Counted from the stretch's first letter, positions 9,595 through 41,876 are shown. The stretch is DNA of 64,000 bases from Candidatus Krumholzibacteriia bacterium (GCA_029865265.1 JAOUHG010000001.1:93213-157212), one strand, 5' to 3'. Program-made: numbers and translations. Notes: generated by a model not told the origin, from the letters alone.

Positions 9595-9833
9595 AATGAT
9601 GGGGATGGCGCGCAGATGTCCTCCTTCGGGTGTCCCCGGAACCGGGAGGAAAACCCGCCGGGGGCCCTCCGGTCAACCCGCATGTCGCGCGCGACCGACC
9701 AAATCGACAATGACATGCGATTTGGAATCGCTCGGCGGCACGCGCCGCGTGATTGCGAAAGAAGTGAAGTTTTTCACACAGTCCGCTTCCATGCGTGACC
9801 GCCAGGGCATATACTGTGTGCGGGTGGCTGCAC

Positions 9834-12268: not shown

Positions 12269-12272
12269 GAAC

Positions 12273-14626: not shown

Positions 14627-14784
14627 CCGGATTCCCGGCCCCCGGGGCGCGCAAAAAATTTTTCCCGAACTTAGCTACGAATTTCACAAACGGGTAGACT
14701 TAGATAGTTTTGCTGCTATACTTGAATTACGGACTAACAACTCCCTTATTGTTATCCAACGTCTAAACAGGGTGGCATTCCAAC
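14627..14784 (+). promoter_or_regulatory. AT-rich intergenic island upstream of hemA (putative promoter or regulatory region)
   Basis: 158-nt stretch with GC far below the ~68% background. It contains A/T runs, TTGAAT and TATACT hexamers and a CTTAG...CTTAGATAG direct repeat. Confidence 0.4.
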
Positions 14785-16071: not shown

Positions 16072-16083
16072 CGGGGGTGTTTC

Positions 16084-23662: not shown

Positions 23663-23784
23663 GACCGGAGCTTACCACCGGACGGATGCGGGCGGGCGCC
23701 AATTGATGGACTGCCCGTGGCGATGCGCGTTGCGCCAGCAACGGCAAACCCACTATAATGAGAGACGTCCCGGCCGCGGTTCCC

Positions 23785-25842
23785 ATGCAACACGTATCCC
23801 ATCGTGCCATATTGCTCCTCGCGACAGCGCTCGTGTTGTCGTCTTCGACGATTGCCCATGCGCAGAGGGTTCGGCCGGCGCGTATCCCGCCCACGGCCGG
23901 TGACGGTGCCGCCGGTTGTGCCGAGGCCAAGTCTGCGTTCGCGCTGTCCCCGGCGCGGGTGGTTGCGTCGCAGGCGAGCACCAATCTGGACATCACCTAT
24001 TACCATCTTGATTTGACGCCGGATCTGGTGGCGAGCACCGTGGCGGGAACGGTACGCGTGGAAGGCAAGGTGGTGGGATCCGCGCTCACGGTTCTTTCGC
24101 TCGATCTGGCCGCGTCCATGATCGTGTCGGCCGTGGCGCTGGCGGATGCGACGCCGCTTGTCTTTGCGCACCCGGGCGATGTGTTGAACATCACCCTGCC
24201 CGCACCGCTTGTTGCGGGTTCGCAGGTCGCCGTCGATATAACGTACAGTGGCACACCGGTCGTGTCCGGCTACGGCAATTTTGTGTTCGGGACGCGCGCA
24301 TCGGAGCGCTTTGGCTGGAGCCTGTCAGAGCCCTACGGCGCGCGCGAGTGGTGGCCGTGCAAGGATCACCCATCGGACAAGGCGGATTCCGTGCGGGTGA
24401 CGGTAACGGTTCCCGATGGTTACCGCGTGGGCTCGCAGGGAATCCTGGAAAGCGAAACCTCCGCGGCCGGAATGACCACCTACGAGTGGGTCTCCCGCTA
24501 TCCCATATCGAACTATCTGGTATCGGTTGCCATCGGTGACTACGTGCGCTACCTGGACAGCTACGATCGCCCCGCGATACTCGCCGCCCGTTATGGTCCG
24601 CTGTCGTTGCCACTCGAGCACCTGCTTTACAACGACAGCAACTCCGATCTGCCCGACGGCTGGAAGAACGTGACCGACGGTCTCGCCGTGTTCGAGGACT
24701 GGTTTGGCCCCTACCCGTTCGCCGGCGAGAAGTACGGACACGCCGAATTCACCTTTGGCGGCGGGATGGAACACCAGACCATGAGTTCCATGGGTGGCTC
24801 GGGGCCGGGGCTGGTGGCCCACGAGCTGGCGCACCAGTGGTACGGTGACAGCATCTCGCCCAAACGGTGGCCGCACCTGTGGCTCAACGAGGGCTTTGCC
24901 ACCTACGCCGAATACATCTACTGGAGCAACTGCAACGCAGAGTGCGATTCGCTCTACGCCGGCACCGCCGAGATCGTGCTGGCGTCGCGCTACCGGACGG
25001 CGCTGCGCGCGCCCGGCACGCTGGTGCTGGCGGACACGTCGAGCGTGAACGACATGTTCGATCCCACCCGCGTGTATGCCAAGGGGTCGGTGGTGTTGCA
25101 CATGCTGCGCTACGTGGTGGGCGAGACCGCGTTTCGGGACATTCTCACCGCGTGGGCGGCGGATCCGTCGGTCGAGTACGGCGTGGCGGAGACTGCCGAT
25201 TTTCAGCGCGTCGCGGAAACTGTCTCCGGCATGGACCTCGATAGATTCTTCCGGCAGTGGGTCGCCGACGGCACGGGCTACCCGGCGTACAGTTTCAGCG
25301 CGTACTGGAAGGCGGAGGGGTCGCAGTACCGGGTGTGGGTGACGTTGTCGCAGACACAGAAGCTCCCGGAATCAAATGTGGCGCTGTTCGAGATGCCCAT
25401 CGAGATTGCGGTGCAGACCATGGTAGATACCGTGCAGGTGCGCACGCGAGTCCTGAACAACCAGCAGAATCAGCTGATCGACTTCCTGGTGCCCGCGAGG
25501 CCCAGGTGGGTCACGCTGGATCCGGACCACTGGATCCTGCGCGCGGACGTCGACACGGTCTCCAGTGCCGCGGTGCCGTCGTATCCGAGCATCCTGGCCA
25601 TTGCCCCCAACCCGACGCGCGACTCGTTCTCGCTGCAGTACTCCATCGGGGGTAGCGGCACAACCACGCTGCTGATCTACGATGTGCAGGGCCGGCGTGT
25701 GTCCTCACAGAGTGTCTCCAACGCGGACAACGGTATTGCCTTCGAGACGGTGGACACGTCGCAACTCGCGTCGGGTGTGTACTTCCTGCGTATCTCGAAC
25801 AGTGGTGGACAGGCTACGCGCAAGTTCGTCGTGCTGCGCTGA
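23785..25842 (+). CDS. M1-family zinc aminopeptidase with signal peptide and T9SS-like C-terminal sorting domain
   Basis: GGMEHQ exopeptidase motif, HELAHQWYG zinc motif with a downstream E, and a signal peptide ([26 protein letters not shown]). The last ~75 aa ([15 protein letters not shown]...[11 protein letters not shown]...[10 protein letters not shown]) match the Por-secretion-tail pattern. Confidence 0.8.
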
Positions 25843-26951: not shown

Positions 26952-29639
26952 TCAGCGGCCCTTCAGCAGGGCCGGCCAATCGTGGACCAAATAGATCAGC
27001 GAATTGGCGTTGTCGTCGGCGGTGACGGCGGCAAAGTAGCGCTTGCCGTCGCCGGTGAGCGTGCCGATGCGGTTGCGGGAGATGCGCATCTGCGGCACCG
27101 GTGTTCCCGCCCTGAAACTCGGGGTGTAATCCACCGGCACCCGCATCATGGTGGCACCGTCGGCGGCTTCGTAGAGCAGTTCACGCCCGCCCTTGTTCCA
27201 GAACACCGCAAACAGATCGCCATAGGATCCGGCGCCGTTGACGGACACGCGATACTTCTCCTGCAGGTCGGGGAACGACACCACGTACGTTTCGAACGAG
27301 CCCGACTCGTCTGAGTGATAGGCGAGATAGCGCCCGTCCGGGGAAACGGCGCCGCCCTTTTCATTGAATCGGGTCACGATGAAGGGCTTCGCCTCTCCCT
27401 TTCCATCCGTGGGAACCGTCCAGATGTCATAGCCGGTGTCGCGCGAGAGCGTGTGATAGACGATGGTTCCGCCGTCCGGTGTCCACGCGTTTGGGCGCAC
27501 AAACAGTTGATCGCGGCGGGTAAGCAGCGGGGTTTCCTCGCCCGCGCCACTGGCGTTCTTCACGTAGATGCCCTCGTTGCCGCCGCGGTTGCTGGCAAAG
27601 GCGATGCGCCGCCCATCCGGCGACCAGATCATGCTGCCGTTGATCGATGGATCGAAGGTCACCCGCGAGGCTGCGCCCCGGCTCAGCTCGATGATGAAGA
27701 TATCGCTGGTGTTCTCGGCGTTGGTGGCGCTCAGCCGCGACGCCGCCAGCCGGGTTCCGTCGGGGGAAAGAGCGACGTCGAGGTACATGCCGTCATCGAC
27801 GCGAACCTTGCCGCGCTGCACACCCGAGGCGTCCCACTCCGGGATGAATGACGACTGAACGGCGGACGTGGTGCGCACGATGACACCGTTGTCGGACACC
27901 GAGAGATTGGGGGAACCGCTCCATCCTCCGCTGGAACCGGGCGGCTCGCCCAGCGGGATCAGCGGGCCCGCCGCCTCCAGCTTCTTCGTGTCGAAACGCT
28001 GCGCGACCAGCGATTGCTCGCGGCCGTAAAGCACGAAACCCGGTTCCGCGTAAACCGCGGCCCCGCGCGCGTTGACCGCGAGCTTGCGGTCGAACGAATC
28101 AATGGACCCGACGAACGTGTCGAAGGTGCCGTTCTGCGCCGGCAACGACACGTACAGGAAGTGCTTTCCGTCGGGGAGGAAGCACGGAAAGCGGTGCGCC
28201 TGTTCGCCGCGGGTCGAATCCAGCTGGGTGACCTGCACCGGCACGCCGCCGTCGGCGGAAACCTTGAACAAAGGTCCGCCCGACGAGGGTGCAAACACGA
28301 TCACGCCATCGCGGTTCCAGGTCCCGCCCCGCCCGTCGGGGGCCGCGCATACCACCTGCGGGGTGCCGCCACCGGCCGGCATGCGCATCAGCTTGCCCGC
28401 GGCCGAGAAGAACGCGATGTTCCTGCTGTCGGCCGACCAGAAGGGCAGGCCGGAGTCTTCGGTGCCGGGGAGCGGCCGCGCCTGGCGGTCGTCGAGGTGA
28501 AGCGTCCACAGCCGATAGGTCCCGAGCGTGTCCGTCGCCAGGAACACAATGGAGCGTCCGTCCGGGGAGATCTTGATCTGGGCTTGCGACGCCGCGATGC
28601 TGTTGGCCCGGTCCAGCGGCTCCACCGCGAAGCGGCTGACCTCCAGGGTCTGCTTCGGGCGCATGAGTGTCGAGGTGGCGAGAGCGATTGCCGCGGCGCC
28701 GAACACCGCGGCTGTGATCCACGCGGTGCGCTCGCGGCTCCGGCGCCGTGCGCGCACCGGGGCGGCCACGCCTGCCTGCGACCCGGCGTCGCGGATCCAG
28801 GTGAGTTCCAGCATGAGGTCGCGCGCGGTCTGCCAGCGATCGTCCGGCTTCTTCTCCAGGCAGCGGTGCACCACGCGCTCGAACGCGGGCGGCGTAAGCG
28901 GCTGCAGTTCGGCGATGGCGCGCGGCTGGTCTTTCAGAATGGACGCGATGAGCGAGGCCTGGGTGTCTCCCTGAAACGCGCGACGCCCGGTGGCCATCTC
29001 GTAGAGTACGGCGCCGAACGAGAAGATGTCGGTACGCGCGTCGGCGGGGCGGCCTTCCAGCTGCTCGGGCGCCATATACTGGAAGGTGCCGATGATGGCG
29101 CCCTCAGCGGTGAGCGATCGCGCCATGGTGGGCGACTGGGTCAGGTCGCCGCCGGCGCCGAGTTCGGCGCTGCGCGCGAGGCCGAAGTCCAGCAGCTTGG
29201 CGCCCGACGGGGTGAGCATGATGTTGCCGGGCTTGAGATCGCGATGGATCAGGTTCTGGCGGTGCGCCCGATCCAGCGCGTCAGCAATCTGAATGCCGAT
29301 GACAAGGAGTTCGCGCATGGGGATAGCACCGCGCGCGATGCGGTCCTGCAGCGACTCGCCCTCGATGTACTCGAGCACCAGAAAGTCCACGCCGTCCTCG
29401 TGACCCACGTCGTGCAGCGTGCAGATGTTGGGATGGTTGAGGCTGGAGACTGCCCGCGCCTCGCGCTCGAAGCGCTGGCGCACCTCGGGCGATGCGGTCA
29501 GGTGGCCGGCGAGCACCTTGATGGCGACGTCGCGGTCCAGGCGCGTGTCGCGCGCGCGGTACACCTCACCCATGCCGCCCGCGCCGATGGGGGAGACGAT
29601 TTCGTACGGGCCGAGCCGTGTGCCGGGGTTGATCTGCAT
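26952..29639 (-). CDS. Ser/Thr protein kinase fused to a TolB-like beta-propeller (WD40-like) domain
   Basis: Hanks kinase motifs (GAGGMGEVY, AIK, HRDLKPGNIML, DFGLA, APE), a TM segment and ~550 aa of TolB-type repeats. Confidence 0.8.
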   Translation of the reverse strand: MQINPGTRLGPYEIVSPIGAGGMGEVYRARDTRLDRDVAIKVLAGHLTASPEVRQRFEREARAVSSLNHPNICTLHDVGHEDGVDFLVLEYIEGESLQDRIARGAIPMRELLVIGIQIADALDRAHRQNLIHRDLKPGNIMLTPSGAKLLDFGLARSAELGAGGDLTQSPTMARSLTAEGAIIGTFQYMAPEQLEGRPADARTDIFSFGAVLYEMATGRRAFQGDTQASLIASILKDQPRAIAELQPLTPPAFERVVHRCLEKKPDDRWQTARDLMLELTWIRDAGSQAGVAAPVRARRRSRERTAWITAAVFGAAAIALATSTLMRPKQTLEVSRFAVEPLDRANSIAASQAQIKISPDGRSIVFLATDTLGTYRLWTLHLDDRQARPLPGTEDSGLPFWSADSRNIAFFSAAGKLMRMPAGGGTPQVVCAAPDGRGGTWNRDGVIVFAPSSGGPLFKVSADGGVPVQVTQLDSTRGEQAHRFPCFLPDGKHFLYVSLPAQNGTFDTFVGSIDSFDRKLAVNARGAAVYAEPGFVLYGREQSLVAQRFDTKKLEAAGPLIPLGEPPGSSGGWSGSPNLSVSDNGVIVRTTSAVQSSFIPEWDASGVQRGKVRVDDGMYLDVALSPDGTRLAASRLSATNAENTSDIFIIELSRGAASRVTFDPSINGSMIWSPDGRRIAFASNRGGNEGIYVKNASGAGEETPLLTRRDQLFVRPNAWTPDGGTIVYHTLSRDTGYDIWTVPTDGKGEAKPFIVTRFNEKGGAVSPDGRYLAYHSDESGSFETYVVSFPDLQEKYRVSVNGAGSYGDLFAVFWNKGGRELLYEAADGATMMRVPVDYTPSFRAGTPVPQMRISRNRIGTLTGDGKRYFAAVTADDNANSLIYLVHDWPALLKGR

Positions 29640-30466: not shown

Positions 30467-31786
30467 ATGCGCCGTTACTTACCTATTGTTCCTCTTCTCA
30501 TCGCGATCCTCGCGGGCTGCGCGGGCAATCCGCCGGAGCCGACCACAGGTGTGGGCGATCCCTGCCGCGTGTCCGGACCGCACGATGGCACGGGGCCCGA
30601 CACGGTGTGGATTGCTGCCTCGCCGACAGAATGGGGCGCCAATGATTACATGCGGCTATTTATCGTGAATCGGTTTCCCACGCTGATCACAGTCGATTGC
30701 AATGGAGACATCCGCCCTGGGCTCGCAGAGATCGAGAGTGGTGCCGAAAGGCGTTGGGTATTGAAGATTCGCAACGACATCCGGTTCGCAAACGGCGAGA
30801 TTGCCGGGCCCGGCGATGTCGTCGACTCCTGGCGGCAGGCCATCGCCCTTGGGGCGGGCGTGGATTCCGTTGTGGCGCTCGATAACAGGCGCGTGGAAGT
30901 GTTTCTGGAGAGGCCGGGAATCGAAGCGTTGGCGTCGCCGGATCTGATGGTGCGTTCTTCGCGGGATTCTGCTGCTCCTCTGAAGGGGGCGCCGGGATTC
31001 ACGTTTGGTGCCCCCGAGGATCCACGCGACATGCTGGCGCGAACGTCCATCCTGCTGTCCAGAGACCCCGGTCTCGTCGCATACGCGGAGGAGAGGGGCA
31101 TGGTAGTGTTCGAGCTCCCATACGATCGAACGTACATGCTCCTCGCACCGTCACGCGTGAGAGATGTTTCAGCTGCTGCCGGCCCCGCGCATCCGAGTCC
31201 GGATCTTCGCCGCGACCTTGCGGCGGCTGTTCGCGAAGGGGAGGTTCGAGCCGCCGGGAGGGCGAACTGGTGGACCGATCTCCTCGATGGCTGTGGCCCG
31301 CTGGTACCCGTTCCCGCGTCAATGGCGGGCCTGCCGGACATCGACGGTTCCGTGGAGACGATCTTCTATGACGAGGAGGACGCCGTCGCGCGCGATCTAT
31401 CCGAGAGAATCGTCGCACTCACCGCCACCGACACGTTGCAGTCCCGGCCGGCCCGGGATCTCTTCCGCAGCCTGCCGGCGATTCGCCCGGGGAACGTGGT
31501 CGCGCGAGGGATAAGCGCGGAAGTGCTTCAGGGGTACCTTGAGGCCGGCAAGGCATTCGCCTTCGTCACCAGCGTCCGCAACCCGGTGGAAGACACGTGC
31601 GGATCCGCGCGTGACCTCTTCCGCCGTGCGCCGTGGCTGGCCGCTGGCGGCGCAGATTTACGCGACGTCGTGCTGGAGCTGGTAGATTTGTCGTCATATG
31701 TGATTCTTACCAACAGCAACGTTACCGTCACGTGGGACATCTACGGCAACGTACGTATCGTACCGCCGCCTGCGGAGCTGCCATGA
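30467..31786 (+). CDS. lipoprotein with a solute-binding-protein (family 5, DppA-like)-type region
   Basis: Lipobox (LIAILAGCAG) and a segment resembling the family-5 SBP signature (IRFANGEIAGPGDVVDSWRQ). Its stop overlaps the start of the downstream histidine kinase (ATGA). Confidence 0.45.
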   Translation: MRRYLPIVPLLIAILAGCAGNPPEPTTGVGDPCRVSGPHDGTGPDTVWIAASPTEWGANDYMRLFIVNRFPTLITVDCNGDIRPGLAEIESGAERRWVLKIRNDIRFANGEIAGPGDVVDSWRQAIALGAGVDSVVALDNRRVEVFLERPGIEALASPDLMVRSSRDSAAPLKGAPGFTFGAPEDPRDMLARTSILLSRDPGLVAYAEERGMVVFELPYDRTYMLLAPSRVRDVSAAAGPAHPSPDLRRDLAAAVREGEVRAAGRANWWTDLLDGCGPLVPVPASMAGLPDIDGSVETIFYDEEDAVARDLSERIVALTATDTLQSRPARDLFRSLPAIRPGNVVARGISAEVLQGYLEAGKAFAFVTSVRNPVEDTCGSARDLFRRAPWLAAGGADLRDVVLELVDLSSYVILTNSNVTVTWDIYGNVRIVPPPAELP

Positions 31787-33450
31787 GTTTTCGTGCGAGG
31801 CTCACGCTTGGCTTTCTCGCCGTTGCGATCGTGCCGATGCTGGTGCTCGGGGCTTTCGTGCGGCGAGAGATGACGGGCCGCCTGTCGGCGCAGTTCGAGC
31901 GCCGGGTGGAAGCGCTGACGGGCGTGGTGGAACGCGACCTGGCCGCGGAGCGGGACGCCATCCACGCCGCCCTTGCGCCCATCGCCGACCGCATGACCGA
32001 CGACACCCGCTTTCGCCGCGCCGCGGTGGACGGTGCTACCGACGAGCGTCGCTACCTGCTCGACTACGCCGGCGTCGCCATGCGCCTGGCGGGTCTGTCC
32101 ATGTTGCAGATCCAGGACGCGGACGGCCGCGTCATCAGTTCCGGGCACTTTCGCAACGACTACGACCGCGTGGACGCGCAGCTGCCGGTGCTGCTCTCCC
32201 GCGCCCCCGGTGGCGTGGCTTTGGTTCGCGCGCGCACTCCCGAGACCTCGTTTCTCGCCTTGGCGGGCGCGGACTCGGTGATGGTGGGGCGCAAGCACTT
32301 CTGGCTGGTCGGCGGCATCGAGGCGGAGTCGCGCCTGCTGGGGCGGCTGTCGCGCGGAGAGGACATGCGGGTGACACTGGTGCTGCCCGGTGACTCGGCC
32401 GCTGCAGGGGATGCGGTGGCGCGAACACTCACGGTTCCTGTTATCGGCGAAGCCGGCATGCAGATGGCTTCCATTCGTGTGGCGCACGACGTGAGCGAAT
32501 TGCACGCGCTGCGCGCCAGCATCGACCGCTGGATCCTGATCGCCGTGCTCTTGACCGGCGTGGCCGCGGTGCTCCTGGCCGGGATCATCGCCGCGCGCAT
32601 GGGCCAGCCCATCGTTGAGCTGGCGCGGCGGGCCGAGAGCGTCGATCTCGATCGCCTCGACGCGGATTTTGCCAGCGAACGCCGTGACGAAGTGGGTGTG
32701 CTGCAGCGATCGCTCGGTGCCATGGTTTCGAGGTTGCGTGAGAGTGCTTCCGCGCTGCGTGACGCCGAGCGCCGCGCCACCCTCGGAGAGATCGCGCGCC
32801 AGGTGAACCACGACATCAAGAACGGTCTTACACCCATTCGCAACGTGTTCCGTCACCTCGACGAGCAGGCCACCGTGGAGCCCACCTCGTTGCCGCGTGT
32901 GTATGGCGAGCGCCGCGAGACCATCGACGCCTCCATCGCATACCTGGAGACGCTTGCGTCGAATTATGCAAAACTGGCCCGGCGGGGTGGGAAGCCGCGC
33001 ACCAACCTCGGAGACGTGGTGCGTGGCGTGGTGAGCAGCCGCTCGGGGGCACCTGCTTTGAAACTGCGTGCCGAAGGGCCCGACGTGTTCGTGAATGCCG
33101 ACCCGGTTGCGCTGCGCCGCATTGTGGAGAACCTGGTGAGCAACGCCATCGACAGCATCCATAACGGAGACGGGCAGGTGACGGTGTCCACCGCGGCGGT
33201 GGGGGATGTGCGCACCGGGCGCGTGCGGCTGGCCGTCACCGACACCGGCAGCGGCATCGCGCCGGAACTGCAGGAGAAGATCTTCGGCGACTTCTACACC
33301 ACCAAACCCGACGGCACCGGTCTGGGCCTCTCCATTGTGCGGCGCATGGTCATGGACCTCGATGGCACCATCGCGCTGGATAGCGAACCCGGCAAGGGAA
33401 GCCGTTTTGTTGTCGAATTGCCCGCGGCCGCACCGGAGGTGAAGGAATGA
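31785..33450 (+). CDS. sensor histidine kinase (two TM helices, periplasmic domain, HAMP, HisKA, HATPase_c)
   Basis: TM1 (LTLGFLAVAIVPMLVLGAFV), a periplasmic segment, TM2 (WILIAVLLTGVAAVLLAGIIAA), an H-box (LGEIARQVNHDIKNGLTPI), N box, and G1/G2 boxes (VTDTGSGI...GTGLGLS). Confidence 0.75.
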
Positions 33451-34802
33451 TCCGCGTGCTCATCGTGGACGACGTCAGGAACCTGGCCGACCAGTACGCC
33501 TATGACCTCAAGCGCATGGGCGGCTTCGAGACGCGCGTGGCCACATCGGGCAAGGAGGCGCTGGATCTCATCGCCTGGGATCCGGTGGACTGCGTGATCC
33601 TGGACCTGGAGATGCCTGGCATCGACGGGTTCGAGGTGCTGCGCACCATGGACCGCGAGGGCCATGGTATCCCCGTGATCGTATACACCGGCACCGGCAA
33701 CTACGACCGCTGCGTGCAGGCGGTTCGCTTGGGTGCCGCCGGCTTCATCGACAAGTCGGAACCCATGGCGCGGGTGGTGCATGAGGTGGAGACGGCGCTG
33801 GAGCGCGCACGGCTGCGCGAAGAAGTAAAGAGCCTGCGCGGCGACGCCGACACGGCCCTCATCGGCACCAGCGCACCGGCGCGGGCACTGGCGCAGCATA
33901 TTGCGCGCGTGGCTGCCATTCCCAGCACGGTGCTGATCGTGGGCGAGAGCGGCACCGGCAAGGAAGTGGTGGCGCGCGAGCTGCACCGCCTGGGACCGCA
34001 CCCGGAGGGGCCGTTCGTGGCGGTGAACAGCGCCGCACTCCCCGACAACCTGGTGGAGAGCGAGCTGTTCGGGCACGAACGCGGCGCGTTCACCGGCGCC
34101 AATCGCACCCACCGCGGCGCCTTCGAGCGCGCGTCGGGCGGAACGCTGTTCCTGGATGAAATCGGCGAGTTGCCGGCAGCGGTGCAGGCCAAACTGTTGC
34201 GCGTGCTGGAGCAGAACGAGATTACGCGCGTGGGTGGTGAGCAGAGCATCAAGGTGGCCGCGCGGGTCATCGCGGCCACGCACCGCGATCTCGAGGCGGA
34301 CGTGGACGCAGGGCGCTTCCGGCGCGATCTGTTCTTTCGCATCAACGTGCACCTGCTGCCCGTTCCGCCGCTCGCCGACCGGCGCTCCGACATTCCGGAA
34401 CTCGCCAACCATTTTCTCACCGCGACCTGTGCCAGCTTCAAGACCCGGCGCAAGCACCTCGATCGGGAGGCGCTCGAAGCGCTCATGGCGTACGACTGGC
34501 ACCGCAACAACGTGCGCGAATTGCGCAATGCCGTGGAGCGCATGGTGCTGGCAACCGACGGCGCGGTGATCACCCTCGCGGACGTGCCCGCCGACATCCG
34601 GCCGCCAACCGATGCCGCGAGCCCGCCGTCGGGTGCCACCAGTTTCCGCGACCGGAAGCTCGAGGCCGAGCGGCAGATCGTGGTGGGTGCGCTGGAGGCG
34701 GCGGAATGGAACGTCACCCGCGCTGCCGCCGACCTGGGCCTGGCCGACCACGCCAGCCTGCAGAAGATCATGCGCCGTCTGGGCATCCGGCGGCCGCGCT
34801 AG
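33447..34802 (+). CDS. sigma-54-dependent response regulator (NtrC family): REC + AAA+ + Fis-type HTH
   Basis: Receiver domain (VLIVDD...DCVILDLEMPGIDG), Walker A (GESGTGKE), a GAFTGA-like loop (RGAFTGA), ESELFGHE, and a C-terminal HTH (NVTRAAADLGLADHASLQKIMRRLGI). Confidence 0.85.
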   Translation: MIRVLIVDDVRNLADQYAYDLKRMGGFETRVATSGKEALDLIAWDPVDCVILDLEMPGIDGFEVLRTMDREGHGIPVIVYTGTGNYDRCVQAVRLGAAGFIDKSEPMARVVHEVETALERARLREEVKSLRGDADTALIGTSAPARALAQHIARVAAIPSTVLIVGESGTGKEVVARELHRLGPHPEGPFVAVNSAALPDNLVESELFGHERGAFTGANRTHRGAFERASGGTLFLDEIGELPAAVQAKLLRVLEQNEITRVGGEQSIKVAARVIAATHRDLEADVDAGRFRRDLFFRINVHLLPVPPLADRRSDIPELANHFLTATCASFKTRRKHLDREALEALMAYDWHRNNVRELRNAVERMVLATDGAVITLADVPADIRPPTDAASPPSGATSFRDRKLEAERQIVVGALEAAEWNVTRAAADLGLADHASLQKIMRRLGIRRPR

Positions 34803-34803
34803 C

Positions 34804-34855
34804 TGTGTCCTCTCGGACACAAGCCATCCCACGGGCTGTGTGTCCAGCCAGACAC
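34804..34855 (+). promoter_or_regulatory. two tandem inverted repeats sharing GTGTC/GACAC half-sites (candidate enhancer/UAS for the NtrC-type regulator)
   Basis: TGTGTCC-tctc-GGACACA (34804-34821) and GTGTC-cagcca-GACAC (34840-34855), ~90-130 bp upstream of the -24/-12 element. Confidence 0.4.
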
Positions 34856-34931
34856 TAGCCCGCCGCCGACCCATCCCACCGTTCTCGGTAACTAGTTGTA
34901 AAATAAAGCTATTAAAGAGACAGCCGCCCCC

Positions 34932-34947
34932 TGGCGGCGCGCTTGCG
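34932..34947 (+). promoter_or_regulatory. sigma-54 (-24/-12) promoter candidate
   Basis: TGGCGGCGCGCTTGCG has GG and GC at the canonical spacing of the TGGCAC-N5-TTGC consensus, ~45 nt upstream of the ATG at 34992 and followed by an AGGAGG RBS. Confidence 0.5.
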
Positions 34948-34991
34948 ATATCCCCTCCCCGGAGCCGAACAACGGCCCAGGAGGTAAGACC

Positions 34992-36026
34992 ATGTTGAAA
35001 GAACAGAAGTTCATGAGTCCCGTAGCATTGTTTGCGGCCGCGGCCGCACTCGCCGTGTTCGCCGCAGGGTGCGGCACCGACGAGGAAACGTTTCAGAGCA
35101 AGAACACCGTCAAGACCACCCCTGCGCCCCCGGCCCATGTGGCGACCACGCCGCCGGCGCGCACGCCGCTGGTCACCGTGCCGGAAGTTCCGGAGCCGCC
35201 GCGCGAGGTGACCTACGAAGAGGCGGAGGCGGCGTACAACGCGAAGCGCTACGACGAGGCGTGCGATCTTTTCATGCGTTACAGCGAGCGCAAGCCCGAC
35301 AATCCGTGGGGGCACTATATGCTGGGGCTCTCCGCGTGGAAGGCCGGCGCGCTCGAAACCGCCGAGACCGAGTTCAGGCGCACCATCGCGCTCGACACGA
35401 CGCACGTGAAGAGCTACGTCAACCTGGCGCGCGTGCTGCTGGACGCCGGACGTCCGGGCGAGGCGTACACCAATGCCGACAACGCGCTCATCATCGACGC
35501 GTCCTCGGTGGCGGCGTGGCGCGTGAAGGGCCGCGTGTGCCACACACTGGGACGCACCGACGAAGCCGTGGGTGCGTATCGCAACGCGATCCGGCTGGAC
35601 CCCGAAGACGCGTGGTCGATGAACAACCTCGCGTTCATCTGGATCGAGCAGGAGCGATTCGAGGAGGCGCTGGGGCCACTGGCGCGCGCCATCGAGTTGC
35701 GTGGCGACGTGGCCGTGTTCCACAACAACCTCGGTATGGCATTGGAGCGAAGCGGCCACCCGTTGGCCGCGGAGGCCGAGTATGTCGCCGCGACCAACGC
35801 CGACCCGTTGTACGAAAAGGCCGCGTTGAATGGCGAACGCATCGCCCAGGTTTTGAAGGGTCCCGACGAAGTACCGGTGGATCTTGCGGGCCTCGCGCGC
35901 GACTTCGTCACCGGGATCGATGGAACGGACGAACCCGCGCTGGCGACCGCGACACCGGACCGCGCAGAGGTGCCGCCCGTGACATCGTCCGCGCCGGACT
36001 CCACGTTGGCCGACTCGAAGCGCTGA
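34992..36026 (+). CDS. TPR-repeat lipoprotein
   Basis: Signal plus lipobox (VALFAAAAALAVFAAGCG) followed by 5-6 TPR units (WGHYMLGLSAWKAG..., YVNLARVLLDAG..., WSMNNLAFIWIEQ...). Confidence 0.7.
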   Translation: MLKEQKFMSPVALFAAAAALAVFAAGCGTDEETFQSKNTVKTTPAPPAHVATTPPARTPLVTVPEVPEPPREVTYEEAEAAYNAKRYDEACDLFMRYSERKPDNPWGHYMLGLSAWKAGALETAETEFRRTIALDTTHVKSYVNLARVLLDAGRPGEAYTNADNALIIDASSVAAWRVKGRVCHTLGRTDEAVGAYRNAIRLDPEDAWSMNNLAFIWIEQERFEEALGPLARAIELRGDVAVFHNNLGMALERSGHPLAAEAEYVAATNADPLYEKAALNGERIAQVLKGPDEVPVDLAGLARDFVTGIDGTDEPALATATPDRAEVPPVTSSAPDSTLADSKR

Positions 36027-36107: not shown

Positions 36108-37262
36108 TTGCTCAAGGTTGTAAGCCAGTCGCCAACCGTGCTAGAATGGATGCTTGCGGCGCGGTCCCCGCGCCCAACCACCTGGAGCACAGCCTTTTTG
36201 CGGACCCTCTATTCCATCACCGAAGCGACCGGCATCAACCGGTTGTTCGCACACCTCAACCGGACCCAACCCATCGTGCTCGCCTTCCACGGGGTAACCG
36301 CGGAAGCGCCCGGCAACCTGTGCAACCACGAGGGCAAGCACCTGTATCTGCCCATCTTTGAGCGGCTCATGGAACACGTGGCCCGCAACTATGCGGTGGT
36401 GCCCCTGGCGCAGGTGGCGGACTGGGTGGATGGCCGCGCAAAGCTGCCCGAGAACGCGGTTGCACTCACGTTCGATGATGGCTACCGCAACGTGTTCACC
36501 AACGCGGCCCCGGTTCTGAAACGGCTCGGCATGCCTTCGACATTGTTCGTGGTAACGGACTTCGTGTTCCACCAGCGTATGCTGTGGCCGGATCGTCTCA
36601 TGAGTGCGATTGCCATGACCCACGCGCCGCGCGTGTCGGTACCGGCAAGCGGCGGGCAACTGGAACTCCCCCTGGGTGACGACCGCGAGAGGCGCGCGGC
36701 CGACGCTTACATCTGCGCGCTGTGCAAGCGCATGCCCGAGAAGGACAAGCAGAGCTTCCTGGACTACGTCATCGGGGAGATGCACGTTCCTGAGCAGGAG
36801 ATCATCGGTGCGTGGCAGGATCACGCCCCCATCCAGCCAGACGAACTGAGGGAACTGAAGGAGTACGGCATGGAAATCGGGTCGCACACCTGCAGCCACG
36901 GTATTGTGACGCGTTTCACGCCGGACGCAATGACGCACGAACTCGCCGTCTCCAAACTGCTGCTGGAGCAGGTTACCGGCCGCCCGTGCGCGGAGTTCAG
37001 CTACCCGAACGGGGCCATCGGCGATTTCAACGATGAGAGCCGCACCCACGTGACCAGGGCCGGTTACCGTTGTGCGGTGACCACGGTGAAGCGTCGCGTC
37101 GCACGCGGCGACGATCGTTACCAGATTCCAAGGTGTATCCTCACCCACAATCAAATTACGACCGCGGAGTTCTCCGCCCATGTCAGCGGCTTGCCGGCCT
37201 TTCTGCGCGCGGTTCGAGCGCGTGTAACCGGGGCGGGCCCGGCGCAGGAAACCGCGGCGTGA
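36108..37262 (+). CDS. polysaccharide deacetylase (NodB-homology, carbohydrate esterase 4 family)
   Basis: NodB motifs TFDDGY (motif 1) and later His-containing motifs; resembles the PEP-CTERM-locus type deacetylases. Confidence 0.7.
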   Translation: MLKVVSQSPTVLEWMLAARSPRPTTWSTAFLRTLYSITEATGINRLFAHLNRTQPIVLAFHGVTAEAPGNLCNHEGKHLYLPIFERLMEHVARNYAVVPLAQVADWVDGRAKLPENAVALTFDDGYRNVFTNAAPVLKRLGMPSTLFVVTDFVFHQRMLWPDRLMSAIAMTHAPRVSVPASGGQLELPLGDDRERRAADAYICALCKRMPEKDKQSFLDYVIGEMHVPEQEIIGAWQDHAPIQPDELRELKEYGMEIGSHTCSHGIVTRFTPDAMTHELAVSKLLLEQVTGRPCAEFSYPNGAIGDFNDESRTHVTRAGYRCAVTTVKRRVARGDDRYQIPRCILTHNQITTAEFSAHVSGLPAFLRAVRARVTGAGPAQETAA

Positions 37263-37290
37263 GACCCTGTTGGCAAGGAACTGGCCGCCC

Positions 37291-38379
37291 ATGAACAAGC
37301 ACACGCTGCCCATCGTCGCCTACCAGCCCGATCAGCACGCCGAGGCGCTGTTCCGATTCATCGAAAAGGTCCTGGGCAAGGAGATGTGCGAGCGCCGCCG
37401 CCGCGTCATCGAGACCATGCATACCACCATGCCCGGTCACGATCGCTTTCCGCTGCGCCACGTCATCGTGGACGGCGACCGCATCGCGGGAACGCTGGGT
37501 TACATGCCGGCGGACTTCTGGGTGAACGGCAAGCGGGTGGCGGTGCGCTTCACCCACGACCTGCTGGTGGACCCGGACTACCGTGGCGCGGGACTGGGCC
37601 GGTTGATCGTGGACAACGCGCGCGCGCTGGGGGACTTCTTTCCGGGGGGCATGTGGATGACGGATCCGTGCCGCAAGATCCATGTGGATTGCGGCTTCAA
37701 GGATGCAACTCCCCTGGTGACATACAGCCTGGTGCTGGACCCGGTGGCGTTCGTGGTGCGCAAGAGCATGTCGGGGCTCAAGGGTCTTGCCAGCCGCACG
37801 GCGCTTTCCGCAAGCCGGACGTTCGCGCTGGCGCGGGCGCGGAGGCTGGCGTCACACACTTCGCTGCGCGAGGTAGAGCGCTTCGATCCGTCAATGGATG
37901 GCGCATGGGAAACCCTCGCGCGCGGCTATGGCATCACCCGTGTGCGCGACGCCGCCTATCTCAACTGGAAGTACTCGGACCATCCCTCGCTGGACTACCA
38001 CAATCTCGTCGCGATGCGTGCCGACACGCCCACCGGCTTCCTGGTGTGGCGGCTCGCGCCGCCGGGCGCGGAGGAGAAGCGGGCGGTGGCGGTCGATTTC
38101 CTCACCGCCCGCGGCGATGCGCAGACGTTGCGCCGGTTGATTGCGCGCGTGGTGGTGGAAGCGCACGCGGCGGGTATGGAATCGGTCTCGGTGTTGACCA
38201 CCCAGACATGGGCGGCGAGCACCCTGCGCGGCCTGGGCTTCATGCCGCGCGCGGCCCGCAACACCTGGGTAGTGGCCGGGTGGGAGAAGGTCATTCCTTA
38301 CGAGTGGCTTTCCGACACCACCGCCTGGCACGTGTGCCTGGGCGATTCCGACGGAGACATGTGGACGGGGAGCATCTAG
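37291..38379 (+). CDS. GNAT-fold acyltransferase of the FemAB/BioF2-like type
   Basis: ~360 aa with a GNAT core (LLVDPDYRGAGLGRLIVDNA) and a long C-terminal extension; follows the deacetylase by 8-30 nt. Confidence 0.5.
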   Translation: MNKHTLPIVAYQPDQHAEALFRFIEKVLGKEMCERRRRVIETMHTTMPGHDRFPLRHVIVDGDRIAGTLGYMPADFWVNGKRVAVRFTHDLLVDPDYRGAGLGRLIVDNARALGDFFPGGMWMTDPCRKIHVDCGFKDATPLVTYSLVLDPVAFVVRKSMSGLKGLASRTALSASRTFALARARRLASHTSLREVERFDPSMDGAWETLARGYGITRVRDAAYLNWKYSDHPSLDYHNLVAMRADTPTGFLVWRLAPPGAEEKRAVAVDFLTARGDAQTLRRLIARVVVEAHAAGMESVSVLTTQTWAASTLRGLGFMPRAARNTWVVAGWEKVIPYEWLSDTTAWHVCLGDSDGDMWTGSI

Positions 38380-39506: not shown

Positions 39507-41006
39507 TCAGCGGGCGGGAGTGGCGGGCGACGCGGACGAACCGAGCGTGGCGAGCTGCGCCAGTTCCGCGGCGACGTCTGCCATGCGCGCGGGGCGCTGG
39601 TCCGGCGACTTTGCCAGCATGCGCGACACGAGTGCATCGAGCGCGGGAGGAACCGGCTCGCGCGTTGCGCGTGAGGCAAGCGGTGGCGCGGGCCTGCGGA
39701 CGTGCTGGGCGAGCACGCTCGCCAGTTCTCCGGTGAAGGGCACCGAGCCCGCGATCATCTGGTGCAGGATGATGCCGAGCGCGTAGACGTCGGTGCGGTG
39801 ATCGACGGCGTTGCCGTCGGCCTGCTCGGGGCTCATATAGTGGGGCGATCCCATCACCGCGCCCTCCAGGGTGTGCGCGGTTCCGGTCGCAATCTTGGCC
39901 AGGCCGAAGTCGGTCACCTTGGGCGTGCGCGCGTCGGCCATGAGGACGTTGGCGGGTTTGAGATCGCGGTGAACGACGCCGCGCTCGTGCGCGTATTCAA
40001 GCGCGTCCGCAATGCGCGCTGCCAGCGCGACCGCGTCCGCGACGGCCATCGGCCCGCTCTGCTTGAGCAGCGCGGCGAGATCCCCCCGCTCCACCAGTTC
40101 CATCGCCATCCACAGGTGGCCGTTATGCTCGACCAGGTCGAATACCTGGACGATGTGCGGGTGCGAAAGCATCGCGAGCACGCGCGCCTCGCGCTGGAAG
40201 CGCGCGATTTCCTCCTCCGTTCCGGAAAGGGGAAGCTGTTTGAGTGCCACGTCGCGCTGTAGAACCTCATCGGTCGCGCGGAATACGACGCCGTAACCGC
40301 CGCGACCAATACGCTGGGAGACCGAGTAGCGCCCACCGACGAGCGGGGTCGTGCCGTCCTGTTGGGACAGCGCCGCGCCTCCGATCCGCGGTACAGATGT
40401 TTCCTCGCGGATGGTGGCGACGTTGTGGGCGTCGTCGTTGTGATCCGCCAGTTGCTGGTCGATCTCGAGAACGCGCTGGTTGAGGGCAGACTCGCGCGCA
40501 GGATCACAGGTCAGGTCCAGCGCTGAACGGTACATCTCCGCGCTTCTCAGCGGCGAGTGCAGTCGCACGGTGTCGGCGTCACGTTCGCGCCGCGAGCTCT
40601 CCGCCTCCGCCCGCTCGACCGCCACCGGGAGGTGCGCGAGCAGGAGCAGGAGTACCAGTCCGCCGCCGGCACAAGTGGCCAGCGCGTCCAGCGTGAACGC
40701 AGCGCGCTTGCGCTGCACGTCCGAACGACTGGATCCGCTGAACACGCCGGTGATGTGTTGACCCAGGCTCTTGCGGGGACCCACGGCATCCAGCACTGCA
40801 TCACGACCGTGGGGATGAACGAAGGCCAGAAACAGAATGACCGCTGCGAGTGTCGCTTGTGCCACCCACGCGGTCATGAGCCAGCGCACCAGGATGCGTG
40901 GTTTTCGCTTCATCGCCGGTAGAAACGCGGATGAACTCCGCGCGCGCCCGACCACGCCGGAGGTGGTGGTGATCACCGGCCGGACAAACCGCCACTGCGC
41001 GATCAT
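39507..41006 (-). CDS. membrane-anchored Ser/Thr protein kinase
   Basis: N-terminal TM region, a coiled/linker segment and a C-terminal Hanks kinase (GRGGYGVVF, ALK, HRDLKPANVLM, DFGLAK, SPEQ). Confidence 0.8.
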   Translation of the reverse strand: MIAQWRFVRPVITTTSGVVGRARSSSAFLPAMKRKPRILVRWLMTAWVAQATLAAVILFLAFVHPHGRDAVLDAVGPRKSLGQHITGVFSGSSRSDVQRKRAAFTLDALATCAGGGLVLLLLLAHLPVAVERAEAESSRRERDADTVRLHSPLRSAEMYRSALDLTCDPARESALNQRVLEIDQQLADHNDDAHNVATIREETSVPRIGGAALSQQDGTTPLVGGRYSVSQRIGRGGYGVVFRATDEVLQRDVALKQLPLSGTEEEIARFQREARVLAMLSHPHIVQVFDLVEHNGHLWMAMELVERGDLAALLKQSGPMAVADAVALAARIADALEYAHERGVVHRDLKPANVLMADARTPKVTDFGLAKIATGTAHTLEGAVMGSPHYMSPEQADGNAVDHRTDVYALGIILHQMIAGSVPFTGELASVLAQHVRRPAPPLASRATREPVPPALDALVSRMLAKSPDQRPARMADVAAELAQLATLGSSASPATPAR

Positions 41007-41701
41007 GGATCGACGGAAACGCCCGTGTGTTGCGTGAAGGAGAATGAGAAATCACCGATCACAATGGCGCAGCCGTCGGACAGCTCGCGGTCCTTCACCG
41101 CCTCGCCGTCCACCTTGACGCGCGTCCTTCCATCCAGATGGCGGATCGAGTAATGCCCGCCAAGAAAGCGAATCTCGGCGTGATAGGGCGCGATGCCACG
41201 GCCGCGAATGATGATGTCGGCCGCTTCGTCACTGCCGATGATCATGAGCCCGCGATCCAGTGAGTAGGTCCGCTCGCGGTCCGGTGAGGTTTCGGTGAGC
41301 GTGGCCGGGTTGGTGATGGGGCCGGGCTGGTTATCGGCGCCGGCGAGCAGGGTGGACTCGAACAGCACTGGGTCCGCGGCGACGCTCCCGTCCGGCGCGG
41401 CGACGCGGCAGATGATGTTGTGCTTGCCGATGGTGATGATGTCCCCATGCGACAGTCTCGCATGATCGACGTGCACGCCGTTGACGCGCGTGCCGTTGGC
41501 ACTCTCGTGGTCGCGGATGATGAGGCCGTCCGGTGACATTTCAATGGTGGCGTGCAGTCGCGACACGGACAGGTTGTCGATCACGATGTGGTTGTCGGCC
41601 GTGCGACCGATCTTGATGGCGGTTTCTCCCACCGGCCACCGCCCGAGTTCGCTGCCCTTGAACTCCAGCGAAAGGATGTAGCCGTGCGATGGCTGGCTCA
41701 T
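41003..41701 (-). CDS. protein with two FHA (forkhead-associated) domains
   Basis: Two FHA cores (IKIGRTADNHIVIDNLSVSRLHATI...GTRVNG and MIIGSDEAADIIIRGRGIAPYHAEI...RTRVKVDG). Overlaps the kinase gene start by 4 nt. Confidence 0.75.
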   Translation of the reverse strand: MSQPSHGYILSLEFKGSELGRWPVGETAIKIGRTADNHIVIDNLSVSRLHATIEMSPDGLIIRDHESANGTRVNGVHVDHARLSHGDIITIGKHNIICRVAAPDGSVAADPVLFESTLLAGADNQPGPITNPATLTETSPDRERTYSLDRGLMIIGSDEAADIIIRGRGIAPYHAEIRFLGGHYSIRHLDGRTRVKVDGEAVKDRELSDGCAIVIGDFSFSFTQHTGVSVDP

Positions 41702-41876
41702 GCGTCGTCTCCCGCGGGGATGCGCGTAACGTGTTGTAAGACAATTGAATAAAAGTGCCGGCTGCCAGGGGGAGAGGTGCAAAAAGCATGCCGGGGACAC
41801 CCGCCCCGGGGGCCACGCCGCGCGGCCCTATGCCACCGTCAGCTATTGATCGGCTGGCGCGCCGGGATCGCGGCGC

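What the first reader, a model, noticed from the sequence alone, without database searches (positions are those of the whole stretch)
34804..34947. Paired inverted repeats plus canonical-spacing -24/-12 element immediately after the NtrC-type regulator gene
Seen in sequence:
- TGTGTCC-N4-GGACACA overlaps the regulator stop codon.
- GTGTC-N6-GACAC lies 20 nt later.
- TGGC-N8-TTGC follows 75 nt downstream with exact consensus GG-N10-GC spacing.
- An AGGAGG RBS follows.

Established knowledge:
- This geometry (tandem dyad sites ~80-130 bp upstream of a sigma-54 promoter) is the textbook bacterial-enhancer-binding-protein arrangement.
Basis: seen in the sequence. Interest (0 to 1): 0.5.

Follow-up and report, generated by a model that had tools for sequence, protein, structure and literature searches.

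The report
Enhancer sites plus sigma-54 promoter
The short stretch after the regulator gene is very probably a textbook sigma-54 control region, with two binding sites for the neighbouring activator and a -24/-12 promoter driving a TPR lipoprotein gene; it is conserved in dozens of uncultured relatives but ordinary in kind.

Summary
The first dyad starts 2 nt after the stop codon and does not overlap it. The TGGC/TTGC spacer is N7, not N8, and the GG-N10-GC spacing is correct.

- **Dyads.** The two GTGTC-N6-GACAC dyads are the only exact copies in the 64 kb window (0.14 expected).
- **Comparative evidence.** The lipoprotein gene and its upstream region were recovered in 53 non-redundant loci. 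NCBI names place the window in Krumholzibacteria, one locus in Latescibacteria, and one further locus in Gemmatimonadales.
  - All 53 carry two GTGTCC-N4-GGACAC dyads 33-35 bp apart. The arms are almost invariant and the spacers are free.
  - All 53 carry a GG-N10-GC element, which unbiased motif discovery recovered as CTGGC-N7-TTGC.
  - Many have an IHF-like site between the dyads and the promoter.
- **Dyads travel with the promoter.** They stay with it when insertions separate them from the regulator gene, and arm changes are not compensatory. They are therefore DNA protein sites, not a terminator.
- **Regulator.** It has a receiver domain, an AAA+ domain with GAFTGA, and a strongly conserved helix-turn-helix. 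It falls below the cut-off of every named family.

Verdict: this is a new member of a known kind, and interest is modest. Protein binding and sigma-54 dependence are inferred, not shown.

The parts
30467..31786 (+). Lipoprotein of 439 aa (lipobox LAGC). It is the first gene of the module and weakly resembles family-5 solute-binding proteins.
   Evidence: Its stop overlaps the kinase start by 4 nt. It is conserved upstream of the kinase in about 25 related loci. SBP_bac_5 match E=0.008; OppA in the PDB E=0.002. The Gemmatimonadales ortholog carries PF00496.
31783..33450 (+). Sensor histidine kinase (HAMP plus HATPase_c).
   Evidence: Pfam; gene call of 555 aa; below the cut-off of every NCBIfam equivalog.
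33447..34802 (+). Response regulator and sigma-54 activator (receiver, AAA+ domain with GAFTGA, C-terminal helix-turn-helix).
   Evidence: Pfam Response_reg and Sigma54_activat, E=1.8e-66. ESELFGHERGAFTGA is read directly in the translation. The helix-turn-helix LGLADHASL.KIMRR is at least 95% conserved in 43 orthologs.
34804..34821 (.). Upstream activator site 1: dyad TGTGTCC-TCTC-GGACACA, centred about -145.5 from the predicted start.
   Evidence: Dyad matrix score 23.7 bits. The arms are 1.1-2.0 bits per position and the N4 spacer 0.0-0.6 bits in 53 loci.
34839..34856 (.). Upstream activator site 2: dyad TGTGTCC-AGCC-AGACACT, centred about -110.5, 35 bp after site 1.
   Evidence: Dyad matrix score 17.2 bits. 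The spacing is 33-35 bp in all 53 loci.
34889..34914 (.). AT-rich patch with two IHF-like matches: TAACTAGTTGTAA at 34889-34901 (minus strand, 2 mismatches) and AATAAAGCTATTA at 34902-34914 (plus strand, 1 mismatch).
   Evidence: Across the loci, 23% have a match with at most 1 mismatch (3.4% in shuffles) and 70% have at most 2 mismatches (28% in shuffles). Best matches most often lie 35-39 nt upstream of GG. The de novo search also found CAA-N4-TTG. This part is moderate evidence only.
34932..34946 (+). Sigma-54 type promoter TGGCGGCGCGCTTGC, with GG at -25/-24 and GC at -13/-12. The predicted start is near 34958.
   Evidence: top matrix hit in the window; GG-N10-GC in 53 of 53 loci; de novo motif CTGGC-N7-TTGC. 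The start site is inferred from the consensus geometry.
34979..34984 (+). Ribosome-binding site AGGAGG, 7 nt before the ATG.
   Evidence: AAGGAGG was also recovered de novo in the orthologous regions.
34992..36026 (+). Target gene: TPR lipoprotein of 344 aa (lipobox FAAGC).
   Evidence: Pfam TPR families; translation. Orthologs follow the dyads and promoter in all 53 loci.
36198..38379 (+). Polysaccharide deacetylase (36198-37262) and a GNAT-like gene (37291-38379). They may be co-transcribed, in this lineage only.
   Evidence: Pfam; gene calls. The deacetylase is found downstream only in L081, the closest relative. No downstream gene is conserved across the family.

Best explanation
The segment 34804-34991 is the control region of the TPR lipoprotein gene at 34992.

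- **Proposed binding.** The response regulator encoded just upstream (33447-34802) is a sigma-54 activator. When phosphorylated by its partner kinase, it most likely binds as dimers to the two GTGTCC-N4-GGACAC dyads, centred about -145 and -110.
- **Proposed activation.** The bound dimers would assemble into the active AAA+ ring. The ring would reach sigma-54 RNA polymerase, held in a closed complex on TGGC-N7-TTGC (34932-34946), by looping the 75 bp in between. An IHF-like bend in the AT-rich patch (34889-34914) may help. ATP hydrolysis would then open the promoter, giving a start near 34958.
- **Shown here.** The elements exist, they are not chance, and they are conserved together with the regulator's DNA-binding helix.
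- **Inferred.** That this regulator binds them, that the promoter depends on sigma-54, that IHF takes part, and the position of the start site.
For: - **Regulator.** It has a receiver domain, a sigma-54 interaction domain and an intact GAFTGA.
- **Dyads in the window.** The only two exact GTGTC-N6-GACAC copies in 64 kb lie here, 35 bp apart.
- **Dyads in relatives.** A metagenome scan with the lipoprotein gave 80 loci; about 50 show the kinase-regulator-lipoprotein gene order.
  - Sixty-two loci (53 non-redundant) carry the dyad pair at 33-35 bp spacing. The arms are almost invariant and the spacers are uninformative.
- **Promoter.** De novo expectation-maximisation on the sequence downstream of dyad 2 returned CTGGC-N7-TTGC as the best motif, and GG-N10-GC is present in 53 of 53 loci.
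  - Matrices built without the window rank the window's promoter and dyads first.
- **Dyads follow the promoter.** They stay 200-250 nt from the lipoprotein start where 0.7-2 kb insertions separate them from the regulator gene (L083, L119, L129, L160, and L001 with a 226 bp inverted-repeat element).
  - They are also present where no regulator gene is in the sequenced flank (L097, L121, L138, L139, L158).
- **Specificity.** Exact GTGTCC-N4-GGACAC is absent from 867 kb around paralogous regulators of other lineages. In 471 kb of orthologous loci every exact copy lies immediately upstream of the TPR gene.
- **Distance classes.** The distance from dyad 2 to GG falls into classes near 72, 85, 95 and 106 bp, roughly one-turn steps.
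- **DNA-binding helix.** The helix-turn-helix is at least 95% conserved in 43 orthologs.
- **Taxonomic spread.** The same architecture occurs in a Latescibacteria contig (L098) and a Gemmatimonadales contig (L164).
Against: - There is no experimental evidence of any kind, and the organism is an uncultured Krumholzibacteria genome assembled from a metagenome.
- No rpoN or ihf gene lies in the window, and the rest of the genome could not be scanned.
- The -24/-12 pattern alone is not enriched in the window.
- Position -11 is C or G rather than the usual A or T.
- Pfam HTH_8 is not reported for the window protein, although many orthologs carry it.
- The IHF-like match in the window is weak (1-2 mismatches), and several GC-rich orthologs have none.
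- The distance classes coincide with clades, so helical phasing is suggestive only.
- In choosing each promoter site I favoured T at -14 and -26, which inflates those two columns. GG and GC were required, not discovered; one search is the unbiased support.
Confidence: 0.8

Rival explanations
1. The two inverted repeats act in RNA, as terminator or 3'-end stabilising hairpins closing the kinase-regulator operon, and not as DNA sites.
For: They begin 2 nt after the stop codon. As RNA they fold into stable hairpins of -12.8 and -18.7 kcal/mol.
Against: - No U-run follows either hairpin, and the terminator scan did not call them.
- Across 53 loci the arm sequence itself is conserved.
- Of 77 variant arm positions, 57 break the pair and only 6 are double compensatory changes.
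- The dyads move with the downstream promoter when insertions separate them from the regulator gene.
- No Rfam family matches.
Confidence: 0.04
2. The promoter and dyads are real, but the dyads are bound by a different factor encoded elsewhere (another activator, or a repressor). The adjacency to this regulator gene would then be only a matter of gene order.
For: Five loci carry the dyads and the lipoprotein gene with no regulator gene in the sequenced flank. No binding test is possible with these tools.
Against: - In about 50 loci from at least three phylum-level lineages, the regulator gene lies directly upstream.
- Its recognition helix is nearly invariant, as is the half-site.
- A -24/-12 promoter needs an AAA+ activator, and this is the one co-inherited with it.
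- Lipoprotein homologs that lack the regulator gene (L133, L141, L147, L157) also lack the dyads.
Confidence: 0.1
3. The lipoprotein gene is transcribed from a housekeeping-sigma promoter in the AT-rich patch. The GG-N10-GC match would then be incidental, and the dyads would act as a classical operator.
For: The AT-rich patch at 34885-34920 stands out in a genome of 66% G+C. Promoter consensus sequences in this phylum are unknown. TGGC-N7-TTGC is not enriched in the window.
Against: - No sigma-70-like site was found in 34500-35300.
- The AT-rich patch is not universal: four orthologs have 23-28% A+T there.
- GG-N10-GC with its flanking T residues is present in 53 of 53 loci and is the strongest de novo motif.
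Confidence: 0.05

Closest known systems
NtrC and the glnAp2 enhancer of enteric bacteria
   Same: A phosphorylated receiver/AAA+/helix-turn-helix activator. Two dyad sites lie about three helical turns apart, more than 100 bp upstream of a -24/-12 promoter. From memory, the NtrC sites are centred near -140 and -108; here they are about -145 and -110. The general mechanism is reviewed in PMC7175178.
   Different: The half-site is GTGTCC-N4-GGACAC, not the NtrC site (the NtrC site is recalled from memory). The protein scores 366 bits against the NtrC equivalog cut-off of 558.6. The target is a TPR lipoprotein, not a nitrogen-assimilation gene.
GlrR (QseF) at glmY and glmZ, with GlrK (QseE) and the lipoprotein QseG
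   Same: A sigma-54 response regulator binds repeated TGTC...GACA dyads upstream of a -24/-12 promoter, with IHF sites in between; this was shown by alignment and mutation (PMC3045617). A lipoprotein belongs to that signalling module (PMC6075780).
   Different: GlrR sites are TGTC-N10-GACA, in three copies; here the sites are (G)TGTC(C)-N4/N6, in two copies. The protein scores 288 bits against the GlrR cut-off of 763. The output is a lipoprotein gene, not a small RNA. The lineage is different.
PrsK/PrsR/PrsT of PEP-CTERM/exosortase systems
   Same: The same triad of transmembrane kinase, sigma-54 response regulator and TPR protein, often in tandem and linked to a sigma-54 motif (PMC1569441). 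In the window a polysaccharide deacetylase and an acetyltransferase-like gene follow.
   Different: All three proteins fall below the family cut-offs: 83.8 against 300, 334 against 502.6, and 65.5 against 312. PrsT is about 900 aa and this protein is 344 aa. No exosortase or PEP-CTERM protein was found among the window ORFs scanned. Here the TPR gene is itself the regulated target.
ZraS/ZraR with ZraP
   Same: An envelope-facing kinase and a sigma-54 regulator whose main target is a neighbouring gene for an exported accessory protein (recalled from memory). ZraR is among the closest solved structures (1OJL).
   Different: The protein scores 315 bits against the ZraR cut-off of 760. The target lies downstream in tandem, not divergently. 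The target is a TPR lipoprotein, and no metal link is evident.

Membership tests
Sigma-54 (-24/-12) promoter | GG and GC dinucleotides separated by exactly 10 nt, within TGGC...TTGC. | tested here: met
   TGGCGGCGCGCTTGC at 34932-34946. It is the top-scoring position in the window with a matrix built without the window.
Sigma-54 (-24/-12) promoter | Conserved at the same place upstream of orthologous genes. | tested here: met
   Present in 53 of 53 non-redundant loci. It is also the best de novo motif.
Sigma-54 (-24/-12) promoter | Transcription depends on RpoN, and the start lies about 12 nt after GC. | not testable with these tools
   No expression data are available.
Bacterial enhancer-binding protein (response-regulator class) | Receiver domain plus AAA+ sigma-54 interaction domain with a GAFTGA loop. 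| tested here: met
   Response_reg E=4.4e-23 and Sigma54_activat E=1.8e-66. GAFTGA is read in the translation.
Bacterial enhancer-binding protein (response-regulator class) | C-terminal Fis-type helix-turn-helix. | tested here: inconclusive
   HTH_8 is not reported for the window protein. Many orthologs at 65-80% identity carry PF02954, and the C-terminal 30 aa are highly conserved.
Upstream activator sequence (enhancer) of such a protein | Dyad-symmetric sites, usually paired, about 80-150 bp upstream of the -24 element. | tested here: met
   The dyad centres lie 120.5 and 85.5 bp upstream of GG. The spacing is 33-35 bp in 53 loci.
Upstream activator sequence (enhancer) of such a protein | Specific binding by the cognate activator. 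| not testable with these tools
   The support is indirect: co-inheritance of the sites with the regulator gene, and an invariant recognition helix.
IHF-assisted sigma-54 promoter | A WATCAANNNNTTR site between the enhancer and the promoter. | tested here: inconclusive
   The window has matches with 1 and 2 mismatches. Across the loci, sites with at most 1 mismatch occur in 23% against 3.4% in shuffles, and best matches most often lie 35-39 nt upstream of GG. No ihf gene was seen.
Named regulators NtrC, AtoC, ZraR, GlrR, NtrX, PrsR | Score at or above the NCBIfam equivalog cut-off. | tested here: not met
   Scores against cut-offs: AtoC 381/714, NtrC 366/558.6, NtrX 334.5/600, PrsR 334/502.6, ZraR 315/760, GlrR 288/763. 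The JGI label 'NtrX' on orthologs is therefore not supported.
PrsK/PrsR/PrsT PEP-CTERM regulatory system | A triad of kinase, sigma-54 regulator and TPR protein that match the TIGR02916, TIGR02915 and TIGR02917 models and are associated with exosortase and PEP-CTERM genes. | tested here: not met
   The gene triad is present, but all three scores are below cut-off. No exosortase was found among the window ORFs scanned.
Intrinsic terminator | A GC-rich hairpin followed by a U-run, with pairing maintained by compensatory change. | tested here: not met
   There is no U-run, and the scan did not call a terminator there. Of 77 arm variants, 57 break pairing.

The most novel reading that the evidence does not exclude
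The four genes (a solute-binding-like lipoprotein, the kinase, the sigma-54 activator and the TPR lipoprotein) may form a self-contained envelope-signalling module shared by Krumholzibacteria, Latescibacteria and Gemmatimonadales lineages. Its only conserved output would be the single TPR lipoprotein. That protein might in turn act back on the kinase, as QseG does for QseE. This would be an uncharacterised feedback circuit, not a regulon for a metabolic pathway.
Probability: 0.25. Interest if true: 0.45.

Novelty: new member of a known kind. Interest (0 to 1): 0.3.

Why it matters
- It gives a concrete, testable recognition motif (two GTGTCC-N4-GGACAC dyads 33-35 bp apart) and a target gene for a sigma-54 activator family that has no name. 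Automatic pipelines currently mislabel this family as NtrX.
- The lineages concerned have no cultured or genetically tractable members, so a motif of this kind is one of the few routes to their regulons from sequence alone. The dyad and promoter matrices could be run over whole genomes of these phyla.
- It fits the earlier proposal that sigma-54 mainly controls the cell exterior (PMC3162934).
- It does not change how enhancer-dependent transcription is understood.

Tried and rejected
- **Genome scan with the regulator.** Only one ortholog (L001) came out. The lipoprotein was the better probe.
- **Rfam on 34000-35600 at E up to 1.** No match, so no known RNA element.
- **Sigma-70 scan.** No promoter-like site. 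It gave one terminator-like hairpin on the minus strand at 34923-34938 that overlaps the -24 element. No minus-strand gene ends there, so I treated it as chance.
- **Terminator reading of the dyads.** Rejected on the lack of covariation and on position.
- **Structure prediction of the 439 aa lipoprotein from an 11-sequence alignment.** Mean pLDDT was 41, which is unusable, so no fold search was run.
- **Conserved genes downstream of the TPR gene.** None across the family.
- **Further dyads upstream of the kinase operon, or elsewhere in the window or loci.** None found, so no evidence for autoregulation.
- **Literature searches for the motif and for these phyla.** Nothing relevant.
- **rpoN in the window.** Not found.

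Full report
**1. What is in the sequence**

- The regulator gene ends with TAG at 34800-34802.
- Two nucleotides later lies TGTGTCC-TCTC-GGACACA (34804-34821).
- A second, slightly imperfect copy, TGTGTCC-AGCC-AGACACT, lies at 34839-34856. The two are direct copies of one 22-nt unit, 35 bp apart.
- TGGC (34932-35) and TTGC (34943-46) follow 76 nt after dyad 2.
- AGGAGG (34979-84) sits 7 nt before the ATG at 34992.

**2. Is it more than chance?**

- Exact GTGTC-N6-GACAC occurs twice in the 64 kb window, both times here, against 0.14 expected from shuffles.
- With two mismatches allowed in the 12-nt arms, the only additional hits are two weak ones elsewhere, no more than chance would give.
- TGGC-N7-TTGC alone is unremarkable: 5 matches against 3.3 expected. 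The other four copies all lie inside ORFs.

**3. Genes around it**

- **Regulator.** 33447-34802 encodes a receiver domain, a sigma-54 interaction domain and an AAA lid. It has an intact GAFTGA loop.
- **Kinase.** Upstream, overlapping the regulator by 4 nt, is a HAMP/HATPase histidine kinase at 31783-33450.
- **First lipoprotein.** Upstream of the kinase, again overlapping by 4 nt, is a 439-aa lipoprotein.
  - Its similarity to family-5 solute-binding proteins is weak.
  - Its Gemmatimonadales ortholog carries PF00496 outright.
- **Target.** Downstream of the control region is a 344-aa TPR lipoprotein.
  - A polysaccharide deacetylase and a GNAT-like gene follow it.
- **Naming.** None of the proteins reaches the cut-off of any NCBIfam equivalog. 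The nearest for the regulator are AtoC at 381/714, NtrC at 366/558.6, NtrX at 334.5/600 and PrsR at 334/502.6.
- **Organism.** NCBI names the exact regulator protein as coming from a Candidatus Krumholzibacteria metagenome-assembled genome.
  - The window's 66% G+C and its type IX secretion sorting domains fit that group.

**4. Comparative test**

- A genome scan with the regulator was swamped by paralogs and gave a single ortholog, L001.
- That one locus already showed GTGTCC-AAAT-GGACAC, a second half-degenerate copy 34 bp later, cGGC-N7-TTGC and an orthologous TPR gene.
- A metagenome scan with the lipoprotein alignment gave 80 loci. About 50 of them show the order kinase, regulator (59-81% identity), lipoprotein.
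- Sixty-two loci, 53 of them non-redundant, carry the dyad pair upstream of the lipoprotein gene. Start-to-start spacing is 33 bp (17 loci), 34 bp (34 loci) or 35 bp (2 loci).
- The arm positions carry 1.1-2.0 bits in dyad 1 and 0.8-2.0 bits in dyad 2, the four central positions 0.0-0.6 bits, and the distal flanks about 0.1 bits. That is the signature of a protein-binding dyad in otherwise unconstrained DNA.
- The loci with no pair were mostly ones with too little upstream sequence.
  - L131 has a pair at 31 bp spacing, which my spacing filter missed.
- Four lipoprotein homologs that lack the regulator gene also lack the dyads.

**5. The promoter**

- Expectation-maximisation with random starts, run on the sequence between dyad 2 and the gene, converged most strongly on CTGGC-N7-TTGC.
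  - Weaker optima were AAGGAGG and a CAA-N4-TTG motif.
- A GG-N10-GC site is present in 53 of 53 loci, with T before GG in 43 and T before GC in 53. My site choice favoured those T residues, so those two columns are somewhat inflated.
- A matrix built from the 52 other loci ranks 34930 first of 127,960 window positions. The dyad matrix ranks the two window dyads first and second by a wide margin.

**6. DNA site or RNA hairpin?**

- As RNA the dyads would fold stably, but there is no U-run and the terminator scan did not call them.
- Of 77 non-consensus arm positions, 57 destroy pairing, 14 give a wobble pair and only 6 are double compensatory changes.
- In L083, L119, L129 and L160, insertions of 0.7-2 kb separate the regulator gene from the dyads. 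In L001 the insertion is a 226-bp element with 27-nt terminal inverted repeats.
  - In all five, the dyads remain next to the promoter.
- Five loci have the dyads, the promoter and the lipoprotein gene with no regulator gene in the sequenced flank.
- Rfam finds nothing in the region.
- The terminator reading is rejected.

**7. Specificity**

- Exact GTGTCC-N4-GGACAC is absent from the 867 kb surrounding 79 paralogous regulators from other lineages. In the 471 kb of orthologous loci every exact copy lies immediately upstream of the TPR gene.
- The regulator's C-terminal helix-turn-helix, LGLADHASL.KIMRR, is at least 95% conserved in 43 non-redundant orthologs. This matches the invariance of the half-site.
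- This is the main, though indirect, reason to assign the dyads to this regulator.

**8. Geometry**

- With C at 34946 taken as -12, the start is near 34958 and the dyads are centred at about -145.5 and -110.5.
- Across the family, the distance from the centre of dyad 2 to GG falls into four classes with nothing in between:

| Distance (bp) | Number of loci | Note |
|---|---|---|
| 70.5-72.5 | 9 | |
| 84.5-85.5 | 2 | the window and L081 |
| 93.5-96.5 | 10 | |
| 103.5-109.5 | 32 | |

- The steps between classes are about 13, 10 and 11 bp. That is compatible with keeping the activator on one face of the helix, but the classes coincide with clades, so I treat this as suggestive only.
- Between the dyads and the promoter, matches to the IHF consensus are enriched and best matches most often lie 35-39 nt upstream of GG. 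Sites with at most 1 mismatch occur in 23% of loci against 3.4% in shuffles.
- In the window, the match that aligns with the orthologs is TAACTAGTTGTAA (34889-34901, minus strand, 2 mismatches). A second, 1-mismatch match lies at 34902-34914.
- Several GC-rich orthologs have no convincing IHF-like site.

**9. Mechanism**

- The best-supported reading is the standard one reviewed in PMC7175178. Dimers of the phosphorylated regulator occupy the two dyads and assemble into the AAA+ ring. The ring contacts sigma-54 polymerase at the -24/-12 element through a DNA loop and opens the promoter.
- The only target conserved across the family is the TPR lipoprotein gene. No gene downstream of it is conserved, and no further dyads were seen near the kinase operon.
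- The deacetylase and GNAT-like genes may be co-transcribed in this lineage only; the deacetylase was also found in L081.

**10. Comparison with known systems**

- The arrangement works like NtrC at glnAp2 and like GlrR at glmY (TGTC-N10-GACA sites plus IHF; PMC3045617).
- At the level of gene content it resembles PrsK/PrsR/PrsT (PMC1569441) and lipoprotein-assisted systems such as QseE/QseG/QseF (PMC6075780).
- Membership in each of these named families was tested against NCBIfam cut-offs and not met.
- The JGI label "NtrX" on orthologs is not supported by that test.
- A 2025 survey of sigma-54 regulons does not mention these phyla (PMC12316311), and my motif searches of the literature found nothing.

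**11. Verdict**

- This is a new, uncharacterised member of a very well-known kind of control region. It is defined here by comparative genomics across at least three phylum-level lineages: Krumholzibacteria (the window), Latescibacteria (L098) and Gemmatimonadales (L164).
- Interest is modest. The value lies in a usable recognition motif and target for an unnamed activator family in uncultured bacteria.

**12. Limits**

- Nothing here is experimental.
- The presence of rpoN and ihf in the genome is unverified.
- Metagenomic loci are not phylogenetically independent.
- The function of the TPR lipoprotein and the signal sensed by the kinase remain unknown. The attempt to model the 439-aa lipoprotein failed (pLDDT 41).

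Noticed in passing
L001:6480-6705: A 226-bp insertion with 27-nt terminal inverted repeats (93% complementary) sits between the regulator stop codon and the dyads in the only ortholog found in the genome collection. It looks like a miniature inverted-repeat element. No other copy occurs in the loci fetched.
   Followed up: partly
window 34824-34832 and 34871-34879: CCATCCCAC occurs just after dyad 1 (3 nt) and again 15 nt after dyad 2, 47 bp apart. The corresponding positions carry almost no information in the 53 orthologous loci, so this is probably local chance or a small duplication.
   Followed up: partly
window 34923-34938: The GC-rich inverted repeat GCCGCC-CCCT-GGCGGC overlaps the TGGC of the -24 element. 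The scan called it terminator-like on the minus strand. No minus-strand gene ends there, and it is not seen in L081, the closest relative.
   Followed up: partly
loci L081-L160 and L164, distance from dyad 2 to the -24 GG: The distances fall into four discrete classes (about 72, 85, 95 and 106 bp) with empty gaps between them. This suggests that indels in this spacer are tolerated mainly in steps of about one helical turn. The classes coincide with clades.
   Followed up: partly
L119:3007-4770, L129:2944-4760, L160:2492-4310, L083:633-1385: In these relatives, 0.7-2 kb carrying other open reading frames, some on the opposite strand, has been inserted between the regulator gene and the dyads. 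The content of the insertions was not identified.
   Followed up: no
window 9795-20131: A cluster of haem biosynthesis genes: uroporphyrinogen decarboxylase, HemN-like radical SAM enzyme, protoporphyrinogen oxidase-like flavoprotein, glutamyl-tRNA reductase, ALA dehydratase and a class-III aminotransferase (HemL-like).
   Followed up: no
window 23758-25842 and 50960-52246: Proteins with type IX secretion C-terminal sorting domains: an M1 peptidase with Por_Secre_tail, and a protein with CHU_C and FlgD_ig domains. This fits an organism of the Fibrobacteres-Chlorobi-Bacteroidetes group.
   Followed up: no
window 39507-41800 (minus strand) and 26952-29639 (minus strand): Two Ser/Thr protein kinases. 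One lies directly downstream of a gene with two FHA domains, and the other is fused to PD40 beta-propeller repeats.
   Followed up: no
window 22049-23662 (minus strand): A type III polyketide synthase (chalcone/stilbene synthase-like) lies next to an isoprenylcysteine carboxyl methyltransferase-family gene. This is a possible alkylresorcinol-type lipid pair.
   Followed up: no
window 55433-55453 (plus strand): The second-best hit of the sigma-54 matrix (GCTGGCGTGGCCCTTGCTCTT, 16.1 bits) lies inside the 5' part of a minus-strand ORF, about 1 kb upstream of the plus-strand gene at 56474. It is probably chance.
   Followed up: no
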